Source: Escherichia coli
GTDB lineage: Bacteria; Pseudomonadota; Gammaproteobacteria; Enterobacterales; Enterobacteriaceae
Direction: 5' to 3' (one strand)
Length of the DNA: 64,000 nucleotides
Assembly: GCF_048403405.1 (NCBI RefSeq)
Contig: NZ_CP183129.1
Numbering within the stretch: position 1 is the stretch's first letter; each line of letters starts with the position of its first letter. The notes under the pieces are model-generated. The model was not told the DNA's origin and ran no database searches. It saw nothing but the letters and a program-made list of their open reading frames with translations. Shown piece by piece: positions 25,963-27,537 of the stretch. A program made the translations under genes and the position numbers.

Positions 25963-26481
25963 ATGGTAGATAAACGCGAATCCTATACAAAAGAAGACCT
26001 TCTTGCCTCTGGTCGCGGTGAACTGTTTGGCGCTAAAGGTCCGCAATTGCCAGCACCGAACATGCTGATGATGGACCGTGTGGTCAAAATGACCGAAACG
26101 GGTGGTAACTTCGACAAAGGGTATGTTGAAGCAGAACTGGATATCAATCCGGATCTGTGGTTCTTCGGATGCCACTTCATTGGTGATCCGGTTATGCCAG
26201 GATGTCTGGGCCTGGACGCAATGTGGCAGCTGGTAGGGTTCTACCTCGGCTGGCTGGGCGGCGAAGGTAAAGGCCGCGCGCTGGGCGTTGGCGAAGTGAA
26301 ATTCACTGGTCAGGTACTGCCGACAGCGAAAAAAGTGACCTACCGTATTCACTTTAAACGCATTGTTAACCGTCGTCTGATTATGGGCCTGGCGGATGGC
26401 GAAGTGCTGGTTGATGGTCGTCTGATCTATACCGCCAGCGACCTGAAAGTCGGTCTGTTCCAGGATACGTCTGCCTTCTGA
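25963..26481 (+). CDS. fabA: 3-hydroxydecanoyl-ACP dehydratase/isomerase FabA
   Basis: ORF 25765..26481; the ATG at 25963 gives [45 protein letters not shown]... (172 aa). Confidence 0.96.
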
Positions 26482-26510
26482 TTATAATCAGACAGAGTAT
26501 CAAAAGGCGA

Positions 26511-26538
26511 AACCTCCGCAATGCGGAGGTTTCTTTTT
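26511..26538. terminator. Rho-independent terminator after fabA (between convergent fabA and rmf)
   Basis: aacctccgca-atgcggaggtt hairpin followed by tctttttaa. Confidence 0.7.
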
Positions 26539-26550
26539 AAAGAGACAGAA

Positions 26551-26718
26551 TCAGGCCATTACTACCCTGTCCGCCATGGCTTCTCGCCAGCCTCCCAGCC
26601 ATTGTGACCTTTGATTCAGCGTCTGATAGGGACACATTTCTTTTGAGCGTCCGGCGATGCCGGCCTGATAACCACGTTGATGTGCCCGTTCCAGGCGATC
26701 TCGTTTTTGTCTCTTCAT
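26551..26718 (-). CDS. rmf: Ribosome modulation factor (55 aa)
   Basis: Hand-translated minus-strand ORF: MKRQKRDRLERAHQRGYQAGIAGRSKEMCPYQTLNQRSQWLGGWREAMADRVVMA; absent from the ORF track (below cutoff). The track ORF 26537..26734 is in a different frame. Confidence 0.9.
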   Translation of the reverse strand: MKRQKRDRLERAHQRGYQAGIAGRSKEMCPYQTLNQRSQWLGGWREAMADRVVMA

Positions 26719-26973
26719 GCCTCGTTTCCCTCATACTGGTTTCTGGTGGAAAAGAAAACAGTGATTACTAAATGTGCAATCACAGTTAAGCAATACCGCG
26801 AATCATAACTGCCGTCAATGCGCAAAATTCACGCCACTGTCATATTTGTGAGCTACACGGGCATGTCAGTTGTACAAAAAATGTGAAGAGGAACAACTTT
26901 TTCCGCAAGTTAGAAACAAAAAAACCGCCTCAGGCAACATACCGGAGACGGTTATATTTACAAATCTTTATGA

Positions 26974-27537
26974 TTACGGTAGACGCTTTATCTCTTGCGC
27001 AATAGAAGCGGCTTCCTGACTCCAGACACTGGCCAGCACTTTAACCATTTCATCGTAACCATCCTGAGTTTGCACCCCTTCCAGACGGAACGGACGTTTG
27101 ATCAGTTGTCCCTGGTGGTTCAACAGCCACTCACCACTGACAATGACCTTGCCATCATATCGCCCGTTAAACTCCGTTACGGTAACATTGAGCGTATCCT
27201 GGGCGCTTCCCAGAGGCTGGGAGGCAACCACCCAGCCGGGCAGTTGCGTGCTCAGGTTGGCAACCAGAGTGTTGCGCAACTGTTGATCCAACGGGCTGGC
27301 CCACAAGTTGTTGTTGGCAATCACATACTTCACATCACTGGTTTGATAAACCACACCATTCCCCGCCAGATAGTCAGGAACAGTGACCTGCTCTACCCAT
27401 AACAGGCGATTACCCTGGCTGGCGGTACTTTGTGTACCGCTCTGCACCACAGGTAACTGGTAATAGTTTTTATTAATTTCGCCGGAGCTGCATCCGGCCA
27501 GCCACAGTGCTGCAATCGTCACTAGCCACTTTTTCAT
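26974..27537 (-). CDS. pqiC: Lipoprotein PqiC (YmbA)
   Basis: 187 aa, MKKWLVTIAALWLAGCSSGEINKNYYQLPV..., lipobox LAGC; ATGA overlap with pqiB. Confidence 0.92.
   Translation of the reverse strand: MKKWLVTIAALWLAGCSSGEINKNYYQLPVVQSGTQSTASQGNRLLWVEQVTVPDYLAGNGVVYQTSDVKYVIANNNLWASPLDQQLRNTLVANLSTQLPGWVVASQPLGSAQDTLNVTVTEFNGRYDGKVIVSGEWLLNHQGQLIKRPFRLEGVQTQDGYDEMVKVLASVWSQEAASIAQEIKRLP

What the first reader, a model, noticed from the sequence alone, without database searches (positions are those of the whole stretch)
26551..26718. Sub-threshold small ORF: ribosome modulation factor rmf, mis-framed by the ORF track
The ORF track reports a 65-aa ORF (26537..26734) in a different frame; the real gene in this spot is the 55-aa Rmf (MKRQKRDRLERAHQRGYQAGIAGRSKEMCPYQTLNQRSQWLGGWREAMADRVVMA) on the minus strand, convergent with fabA.
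Basis: partly seen in the sequence, partly recalled or inferred. Interest (0 to 1): 0.25.

Follow-up and report, generated by a model that had tools for sequence, protein, structure and literature searches.

The report
E. coli ribosome modulation factor gene
This is the ordinary, well-studied E. coli gene rmf, a 55-amino-acid protein that puts ribosomes to sleep in starved cells; a longer overlapping reading frame hid it from a length-based ORF list.

Summary
The finding is correct and ordinary. Window 26551..26718 (minus strand) is an ATG-to-TGA ORF that translates exactly to the 55-aa sequence quoted. It is 100% identical over its full length to E. coli ribosome modulation factor (RMF) in solved hibernating-ribosome structures (6h4n, 4v8g). 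It passes Pfam PF04957 (E 1.7e-22) and the NCBIfam RMF equivalog (92 bits, cutoff 40). RefSeq annotates rmf at these exact coordinates, and the region is in 5425 of 5426 complete E. coli genomes.

The 65-aa ORF (26537..26734) exists, 16 nt out of register, but it is a by-product:
- It matches no family and has no Shine-Dalgarno.
- Its substitutions are almost all non-synonymous (1 syn/18 nonsyn versus Klebsiella; the rmf frame has 11/4).
- Stop codons break it in Pectobacterium and Edwardsiella.
- About 10% of synonymous re-codings of Rmf leave it open by chance.

The same mis-framing occurs in GenBank, where ACT70914.1 is named "ribosome modulation factor".

The suggested RBS check is met by the two published GAGG sites, 11 and 2 nt upstream of the ATG (polyamine modulon). 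rmf is convergent with fabA and shares a bidirectional terminator with it. The 5' leader holds a hairpin with compensatory changes and an invariant SD-sequestering fold.

Novelty: already known. Interest: low.

The parts
26551..26718 (-). rmf coding sequence: 55 codons plus TGA, encoding ribosome modulation factor (6.5 kDa, pI 10.9)
   Evidence: ORF and translation. (PF04957, 79.6 bits, cutoff 27.9). (NF011162 equivalog, 92.1 bits, cutoff 40). (100% identity to 6h4n_v and 4v8g_AV). (RefSeq rmf at L001 3252..3419, which is window 26551..26718). (variable columns by codon position 14/10/31). (MW and pI).
26729..26732 (-). SD1 (GAGG, extended to GAGGG at 26732..26728): the distal Shine-Dalgarno, 11 nt upstream of the ATG by the published counting
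   Evidence: Sequence. Best anti-SD duplex in the 22 nt upstream, dG -6.1 kcal/mol. Invariant in 7 genera. Described as SD1 in PMC7177335.
26720..26723 (-). SD2 (GAGG), 2 nt upstream of the ATG: too close for normal initiation, and base-paired in the leader fold
   Evidence: Sequence. Paired with UGUUUU in the consensus fold. Described as SD2, forming double-stranded RNA, in PMC7177335.
26717..26760 (-). Leader hairpin 2: U/C-rich tract (UGUUUUCUUUUCC) paired with SD1, SD2 and the bases before the AUG. This is a translation-initiation region that sequesters the SDs.
   Evidence: MFE fold. (consensus fold, 13 pairs kept in 7 of 7 genera). (12 of 13 pairs invariant, so no covariation evidence). 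(dG -8.7). It is probably the published 43-mer structure (PMC7177335); that is inferred from the text description, as the figure was not seen.
26761..26783 (-). Leader hairpin 1 (GUGAUUGC-loop-GUAAUCAC), probably at or near the 5' end of the mRNA
   Evidence: flagged as terminator-like. (dG -7.7). (3 of 9 pairs with compensatory changes across 7 genera, 90% of cells paired). A role in mRNA stability is an inference.
26790..26818 (-). Putative sigma-70 promoter: -35 TTGACG (26818..26813), 17-nt spacer, -10 TATTGC (26795..26790)
   Evidence: Read. TTGAC is invariant and TATTG nearly so in 7 genera. It falls below the consensus scanner's threshold (0 sites). The literature places a single RpoD promoter at -58 from the ATG (PMC6134199), about 7 nt downstream of the start this promoter predicts, so the exact TSS is unresolved.
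26819..26853 (-). Conserved block upstream of the -35 (CTCACAAATATGACAGTGGCGTGAATTTTGCGCA): probable regulator-binding region
   Evidence: highly conserved in 6 of 7 genera. [quoted passage not shown] No CRP consensus was found here at 2 mismatches or fewer. The assignment is an inference.
26509..26533 (.). Bidirectional intrinsic terminator shared by the convergent fabA (+) and rmf (-) genes
   Evidence: 11-bp stem, 7 GC pairs, hits on both strands. (dG -19.3 on the rmf strand). (hairpin kept in 5 genera, with a compensatory A-T to G-C change in Klebsiella and a different sequence that still folds as a hairpin in Edwardsiella).
26537..26734 (-). 65-aa out-of-frame ORF overlapping rmf: not a gene. 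Its ATG (26734..26732) overlaps SD1.
   Evidence: the ORF. (no family). (stop codons in Pectobacterium and Edwardsiella). (syn/nonsyn 1/18, 3/14, 4/12 and 5/24, against 11/4, 9/6, 8/8 and 18/12 in the rmf frame; open in about 10% of synonymous re-codings). (no SD, dG 0.2 or higher). (deposited in GenBank as a mis-annotation).

Best explanation
Window 26551..26718 (minus strand) is the E. coli rmf gene. Its 55-aa, strongly basic product is ribosome modulation factor.

From established work on this identical protein: RMF binds the 30S subunit next to the anti-Shine-Dalgarno end of 16S rRNA, blocks mRNA recruitment, and drives two 70S ribosomes into a 90S dimer. HPF then matures the dimer into the inactive 100S 'hibernating' ribosome in stationary phase or starvation.

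The gene is a monocistronic unit:
- A weak sigma-70 promoter lies in the 255-bp pqiC-rmf spacer. Per the literature it is activated by ppGpp and cAMP-CRP and modulated by several transcription factors.
- The leader is about 58-65 nt. Its two GAGG sites are badly spaced (11 and 2 nt from the AUG) and base-paired with an upstream U/C tract, which makes translation inefficient and polyamine-dependent.
- A strong hairpin terminator is shared with the convergent fabA gene.

The 65-aa ORF that a length-ranked ORF list reports here is a non-coding shadow frame of rmf.
For: Shown here:
- Exact ORF and translation.
- 100% full-length identity to RMF chains in 6h4n, 6h58, 9iot and 4v8g.
- PF04957 E 1.7e-22, and the NF011162 equivalog at 92.1 bits against a cutoff of 40.
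- RefSeq annotation at identical coordinates.
- The region is present in 5425 of 5426 complete E. coli genomes.
- 635 homologues were found. All 120 listed carry PF04957, and every source-given name among them is ribosome modulation factor.
- pqiB-pqiC-rmf synteny in 6 of 6 other genera, with convergent fabA in 4 of 6.
- A codon-position and syn/nonsyn pattern that fits only the rmf frame.
- SD1 pairs with the anti-SD at dG -6.1, and the rival ATG has no SD.
- The leader fold is conserved.
- The terminator is conserved, with compensatory change.

From the literature:
- 30S/anti-SD binding and 90S-to-100S dimerisation (PMC10746276; PMC8778775).
- ppGpp, CRP and transcription-factor control, and an mRNA half-life of about 24 min (PMC8778775; PMC6134199).
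- SD1/SD2 and polyamine stimulation (PMC7177335).
Against: Nothing argues against the gene identity. Minor loose ends:
- The consensus promoter scanner finds no sigma-70 site in the spacer.
- The TSS implied by the conserved TTGACG-17-TATTGC (about -65) differs from the -58 quoted in PMC6134199.
- The SD-sequestering hairpin is invariant, so comparative data can neither prove nor disprove the pairing.
- The leader fold is only marginally more stable than shuffles (z = -1.89, 8 of 200).
Confidence: 0.99

Rival explanations
1. The 65-aa ORF (26537..26734, minus strand) is the real gene at this spot, or a second overlapping gene, and the ORF track was right.
For: It is longer, starts with ATG, and is open with the same length in Escherichia, Klebsiella, Enterobacter and Franconibacter. 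Its ATG is invariant in 7 genera. It has been deposited as a protein in GenBank.
Against: It matches no Pfam or NCBIfam family. Its substitutions against other genera are almost all non-synonymous in this frame (1/18, 3/14, 4/12, 5/24), while the rmf frame shows excess synonymous change. Stop codons interrupt it in Pectobacterium (2) and Edwardsiella (1). It stays open in about 10% of random synonymous re-codings of Rmf, so openness in four close relatives is unremarkable. It has no SD (dG 0.2 or higher). Its invariant ATG is explained by the overlap with SD1. The database cluster has 4 members, whereas the exact Rmf sequence occurs on at least 1000 contigs.
Confidence: 0.01
2. The ORF is an Rmf/CrpP-fold paralogue (a CrpP-like ICE or phage protein) rather than the ribosome hibernation factor itself.
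For: Weak sub-cutoff hits to CrpP_fam (19.8 bits, cutoff 55), Rmf_like_phage (24.1 bits, cutoff 40) and CrpP_rel_fam.
Against: All of those hits fall below their curated cutoffs, while the RMF equivalog model scores 92.1 against 40. The protein is identical to the ribosome-bound RMF chain. The locus is core-chromosomal and syntenic across Enterobacterales, with no mobile-element context. The 'plasmid' hits are 0.26-4.9 Mb non-mobilizable records, probably mislabelled chromosome pieces.
Confidence: 0.003

Closest known systems
E. coli K-12 Rmf (RMF_ECOLI; PDB 6h4n chain v, 4v8g chain AV)
   Same: The amino-acid sequence is identical over all 55 residues. The gene has the same neighbours, pqiC upstream and fabA convergent downstream. 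The SD1/SD2 leader is the same as published. The 256-bp promoter probe of W3110 matches the window's spacer apart from a few single-base differences.
   Different: Nothing at the protein level. The window's DNA is 98.6% identical to strain REL606 over 501 bp and 100% identical to strain 7/2 and others, so it comes from a different E. coli lineage.
Vibrio parahaemolyticus RMF (PDB 2jrm)
   Same: Same family, aligned over residues 1-50 at E 4.1e-19.
   Different: It is an orthologue from another gammaproteobacterial order, with a longer deposited chain (65 residues).
CrpP / Rmf-like phage proteins (NF033696, NF041887)
   Same: They share the Rmf/CrpP fold-level subfamily NF041886 (51.1 bits, cutoff 28).
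   Different: The specific CrpP and phage models score below their cutoffs. Those proteins are borne on mobile elements, whereas this gene is a core chromosomal gene.

Membership tests
Ribosome modulation factor (Pfam PF04957 / NCBIfam NF011162 equivalog) | Sequence scores above the curated family cutoffs over the whole domain | tested here: met
   PF04957 at 79.6 bits against 27.9, covering profile positions 1-52 of 53. NF011162 at 92.1 bits against 40, covering 1-47 of 47.
Ribosome modulation factor (Pfam PF04957 / NCBIfam NF011162 equivalog) | Small (about 55 aa), strongly basic protein | tested here: met
   55 aa, 6507 Da, pI 10.86, 12 K+R against 5 D+E. This agrees with 'RMF 6.5 k' and '55 amino acids' in PMC8778775.
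Ribosome modulation factor (Pfam PF04957 / NCBIfam NF011162 equivalog) | Identity or near-identity to a protein shown experimentally to be bound to the ribosome | tested here: met
   100% identity over residues 1-55 to RMF chains in 6h4n, 6h58, 9iot and 4v8g.
Ribosome modulation factor (Pfam PF04957 / NCBIfam NF011162 equivalog) | Gammaproteobacterial host and conserved chromosomal context | tested here: met
   The region is in 5425 of 5426 E. coli genomes. pqiB-pqiC-rmf order holds in Klebsiella, Enterobacter, Franconibacter, Pectobacterium, Serratia and Edwardsiella. The named homologues come from gammaproteobacterial genera such as Klebsiella, Serratia, Aliiglaciecola and Pseudoalteromonas.
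Ribosome modulation factor (Pfam PF04957 / NCBIfam NF011162 equivalog) | The reading frame is under purifying selection as a protein | tested here: met
   Variable columns by codon position are 14/10/31. Synonymous changes outnumber or equal non-synonymous ones only in the rmf frame.
Ribosome modulation factor (Pfam PF04957 / NCBIfam NF011162 equivalog) | Binds 30S near the anti-SD and induces 70S dimerisation to 90S/100S | not testable with these tools
   Known for the identical protein from the literature (PMC10746276; PMC8778775). Not re-tested here.
Ribosome modulation factor (Pfam PF04957 / NCBIfam NF011162 equivalog) | Stationary-phase, ppGpp- and cAMP-CRP-dependent expression | not testable with these tools
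   Literature only (PMC8778775). A conserved non-consensus promoter and upstream block are visible, but no CRP consensus at 2 mismatches or fewer was found in the spacer.
CrpP family ICE-associated protein (NF033696) | Score above the curated cutoff | tested here: not met
   19.8 bits against a cutoff of 55.
Rmf-like phage protein (NF041887) | Score above the curated cutoff | tested here: not met
   24.1 bits against a cutoff of 40.

The most novel reading that the evidence does not exclude
The invariant out-of-frame AUG at 26734..26732 overlaps SD1 and opens the 65-aa frame (28-65+ codons in all 7 genera examined). It might occasionally be used for initiation and act as an overlapping upstream ORF that competes with, or tunes, rmf translation. 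Separately, the covarying hairpin at 26783..26761 may be the true 5' terminus of the mRNA (TSS at -65, not -58) and the structural basis of the unusually long rmf mRNA half-life.
Probability: 0.04. Interest if true: 0.3.

Novelty: already known. Interest (0 to 1): 0.04.

Why it matters
Biologically this adds nothing new. rmf has been known since the early 1990s and its product has been seen on the ribosome at atomic resolution.

The practical value is methodological. It is a clean example of a real small gene (55 aa) hidden by a longer shadow ORF (65 aa) in another frame when ORFs are ranked or thresholded by length. The same error has entered GenBank: ACT70914.1 is the 65-aa frame, labelled 'ribosome modulation factor'. 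rmf was also left unannotated in Y. pestis and first taken for an sRNA (PMC3672283). Scans that rely on an ORF-length floor should expect such cases and check alternative frames against family models.

Tried and rejected
- I scanned the fabA-rmf-pqiC region against Rfam at a permissive threshold. Only three sub-threshold hits appeared, to amino-acid leader families (21-25 bits against gathering scores of 50-55), all sitting on the terminator hairpin. I rejected them as chance.
- I searched for a CRP consensus (TGTGA-N6-TCACA, 2 mismatches or fewer). There was none in the rmf-pqiC spacer, and window-wide counts were below the shuffled expectation, so I could not place the published CRP sites.
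- The sigma-70 consensus scanner found no promoter. The promoter given in the parts list rests on cross-genus conservation only.
- I folded the leader from the literature TSS at -58. The fold was no better than shuffles (z = +0.8). Only when the fold starts at -65 does hairpin 1 form (z = -1.89).
- I tried to read Shimada 2013 and Aiso 2005. Neither is held in the library.
- I checked whether rmf is plasmid-borne. The hits are Mb-scale or very large non-mobilizable records, that is, mislabelled chromosome pieces.
- I considered an overlapping-gene reading for the 65-aa ORF and rejected it.
- I predicted no structure, because experimental structures of the identical protein exist.

Full report
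**Observation**

The minus strand of window 26551..26718 is an ORF that starts at ATG (26718..26716) and ends at TGA (26553..26551). A second ORF of 65 aa lies on the same strand at 26537..26734, starting 16 nt upstream and therefore in another frame. With a 60-aa floor, only the 65-aa ORF is listed. The description of a "sub-threshold" gene "mis-framed by the ORF track" is accurate.

**Identity**

- The 55-aa product hits Pfam PF04957 (RMF) at E 1.7e-22, 79.6 bits against a cutoff of 27.9.
- It hits the NCBIfam equivalog NF011162 "ribosome modulation factor" at 92.1 bits against a cutoff of 40.
- It is 100% identical over residues 1-55 to the RMF chains of the E. coli hibernating-ribosome structures 6h4n/6h58/9iot and of 4v8g. 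It is related to the Vibrio NMR structure 2jrm at E 4e-19.
- A 701-bp stretch around it is 100% identical to several E. coli chromosomes and occurs in 5425 of 5426 complete E. coli genomes.
- In NZ_CP023820.1, RefSeq annotates rmf at locus 3252..3419. This maps to window 26551..26718 exactly, with fabA (25963..26481, plus strand) convergent on one side and pqiC (26974..27537, minus strand), pqiB and pqiA on the other.
- The exact sequence is UniProt RMF_ECOLI and was seen on at least 1000 contigs.
- A database search returns 635 homologues. All 120 listed carry PF04957, and every source-given name among them is ribosome modulation factor. The named genera include Enterobacterales and marine gammaproteobacteria such as Aliiglaciecola and Pseudoalteromonas.
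- The protein is 6507 Da with pI 10.9, matching the literature description (PMC8778775).

**The rival frame**

The 65-aa ORF and the 55-aa plus-strand ORF at 26604..26771 match no Pfam or NCBIfam family. I fetched rmf loci from Klebsiella, Enterobacter, Franconibacter, Pectobacterium, Serratia and Edwardsiella.

- In the rmf frame, variable columns fall 14/10/31 on codon positions 1/2/3.
- Changed codons against E. coli, as synonymous/non-synonymous:

| Compared genus | rmf frame | 65-aa frame |
|---|---|---|
| Klebsiella | 11/4 | 1/18 |
| Enterobacter | 9/6 | 3/14 |
| Franconibacter | 8/8 | 4/12 |
| Pectobacterium | 18/12 | 5/24 |

- The 65-aa frame is open in the four Enterobacteriaceae and in Serratia. 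Stop codons break it in Pectobacterium (two) and Edwardsiella (one).
- A simulation re-drew synonymous codons for the Rmf protein. The shadow frame stayed open in about 10% of draws, so its openness is not evidence of coding.
- Its ATG (26734..26732) has no upstream anti-SD complementarity (dG 0.2 kcal/mol or higher). Its invariance across genera is explained by its overlap with SD1.
- The same error exists in public annotation. The exact 65-aa sequence is deposited as ACT70914.1, named "ribosome modulation factor" (E. coli O157:H7 TW14359), and as hypothetical proteins in HMP strains.
- Several database entries are chimeras of the two frames, caused by indels.

**Ribosome-binding site**

Upstream of the ATG the mRNA reads ...CCAGUAUGAGGGAAACGAGGC-AUG.

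- The strongest anti-SD match is GAGGG at 26732..26728 (dG -6.1), with 9 nt between it and the AUG.
- A second GAGG at 26723..26720 is only 1 nt from the AUG.
- This is the published arrangement: SD1 is 11 nt and SD2 is 2 nt upstream by the authors' counting. SD1 lies in a bulged region and SD2 in a duplex, which makes RMF synthesis polyamine-stimulated and places rmf in the polyamine modulon (PMC7177335).
- The whole segment AUGAGGGAAA-NN-AGGCAUG is invariant or nearly so in seven genera.

**Leader, promoter and terminator**

- *Hairpin 1.* RNAalifold on seven genera predicts two helices. Hairpin 1 (26783..26761, dG -7.7) has 3 of 9 pairs with compensatory double changes and 90% of cells paired.
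- *Hairpin 2.* It pairs the invariant UGUUUU/UUUCC tracts (within 26760..26748) with GAGGCA and GGAAA, that is, with SD2 and SD1. All 13 pairs are kept, but 12 never vary, so there is no covariation evidence.
- *Promoter.* Upstream, TTGACG (26818..26813), a 17-nt spacer and TATTGC (26795..26790) are conserved but fall below the consensus scanner's threshold. This is consistent with a weak, activator- and ppGpp-dependent promoter.
- *TSS discrepancy.* That promoter predicts a start near G26783, the first base of hairpin 1. PMC6134199 quotes -58 (26776). I could not resolve this because the primary papers are not held.
- *Possible function of hairpin 1.* A 5'-terminal hairpin would fit the reported 24-min mRNA half-life (PMC8778775). 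This is inference only.
- *Terminator.* Downstream, an 11-bp GC-rich hairpin (26509..26533; dG -19.3 on the rmf strand) is flanked by T-runs on both strands. It serves both fabA and rmf. It is conserved as a structure, with a compensatory change in Klebsiella and a different sequence in Edwardsiella.

**Mechanism**

This comes from the literature on the identical protein, not from tests here. RMF binds the 30S subunit where the mRNA SD pairs with the anti-SD. It converts 70S ribosomes to 90S dimers, which HPF stabilises as inactive 100S particles. [quoted passage not shown]

**Verdict**

The gene is already known and interest is very low. The only residual curiosities are the TSS/hairpin discrepancy and the recurrence of the shadow-ORF mis-annotation in public databases.

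Noticed in passing
window 26537..26734 (-): The exact 65-aa out-of-frame ORF is deposited in GenBank. ACT70914.1 is named 'ribosome modulation factor' (E. coli O157:H7 TW14359). EFJ93212.1, EFU50567.1 and EGB79092.1 are 'hypothetical protein'. This is the same mis-framing as the ORF track.
   Followed up: yes
window 26551..26734 (-); proteins P0025, P0039, P0050, P0098, P0106: Some database proteins are chimeras of the Rmf frame and the 65-aa frame. Several start MRETRHEE... and then join Rmf. P0039 (60 aa, 23 member sequences) is Rmf residues 1-46 followed by the shadow-frame tail SHGGQGSNGLILSL. They are either indel sequencing errors or natural rmf frameshift alleles.
   Followed up: partly
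window 26761..26783 (-) and 26776: A leader hairpin with compensatory changes begins exactly where the conserved TTGACG-17-TATTGC promoter predicts the TSS (-65). The TSS quoted in the literature (-58, PMC6134199) would cut its 5' arm. This is unresolved.
   Followed up: partly
window 26819..26853 (-): A strongly conserved 35-nt block lies immediately upstream of the rmf -35 in 6 of 7 genera. It has no recognisable CRP consensus at 2 mismatches or fewer.
   Followed up: partly
L002 (NZ_CP018243.1, E. coli strain 350), about 3362..4680; corresponds to window ~26840/26841: An IS3-family IS1203 element is inserted in the pqiC-rmf spacer, about 22 nt upstream of the rmf -35 hexamer. It splits the conserved upstream block, so rmf regulation may be altered in that strain.
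   Followed up: partly
window 26477..26492: A perfect 16-bp palindrome, TCTGATTATAATCAGA, overlaps the fabA stop codon (TGA 26479..26481). It came up as a 2-mismatch CRP-pattern hit. It is only partly conserved in Klebsiella and its function is unknown.
   Followed up: no
plasmid-collection hits H41-H50: All 12 'plasmid' records carrying the rmf region are predicted non-mobilizable; the listed ones are 0.26-4.9 Mb and the annotated ones show the full fabA-rmf-pqiC context. They look like mislabelled chromosomes or chromosome fragments, not mobile rmf copies.
   Followed up: yes
L006 1669..3168 and L007 1672..3171: The convergent fabA neighbour is not universal. Pectobacterium has a chemoreceptor gene downstream of rmf. 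Serratia has a Y1 (IS200-like) transposase gene followed by a ketoacyl synthase gene. pqiB-pqiC-rmf is kept in all six genera.
   Followed up: no
window 26461..26574: Three sub-threshold Rfam hits (Phe_leader, rnk_pseudo, Leu_leader; 21-25 bits against gathering scores of 50-55) all sit on the fabA/rmf terminator hairpin. They are chance resemblance to attenuator terminators.
   Followed up: yes
window 26924..26938 (-): A short terminator-like hairpin followed by T7 lies 36 nt downstream of the pqiC stop. It probably insulates rmf from pqiABC read-through. The T-run is conserved in the cross-genus alignment.
   Followed up: no
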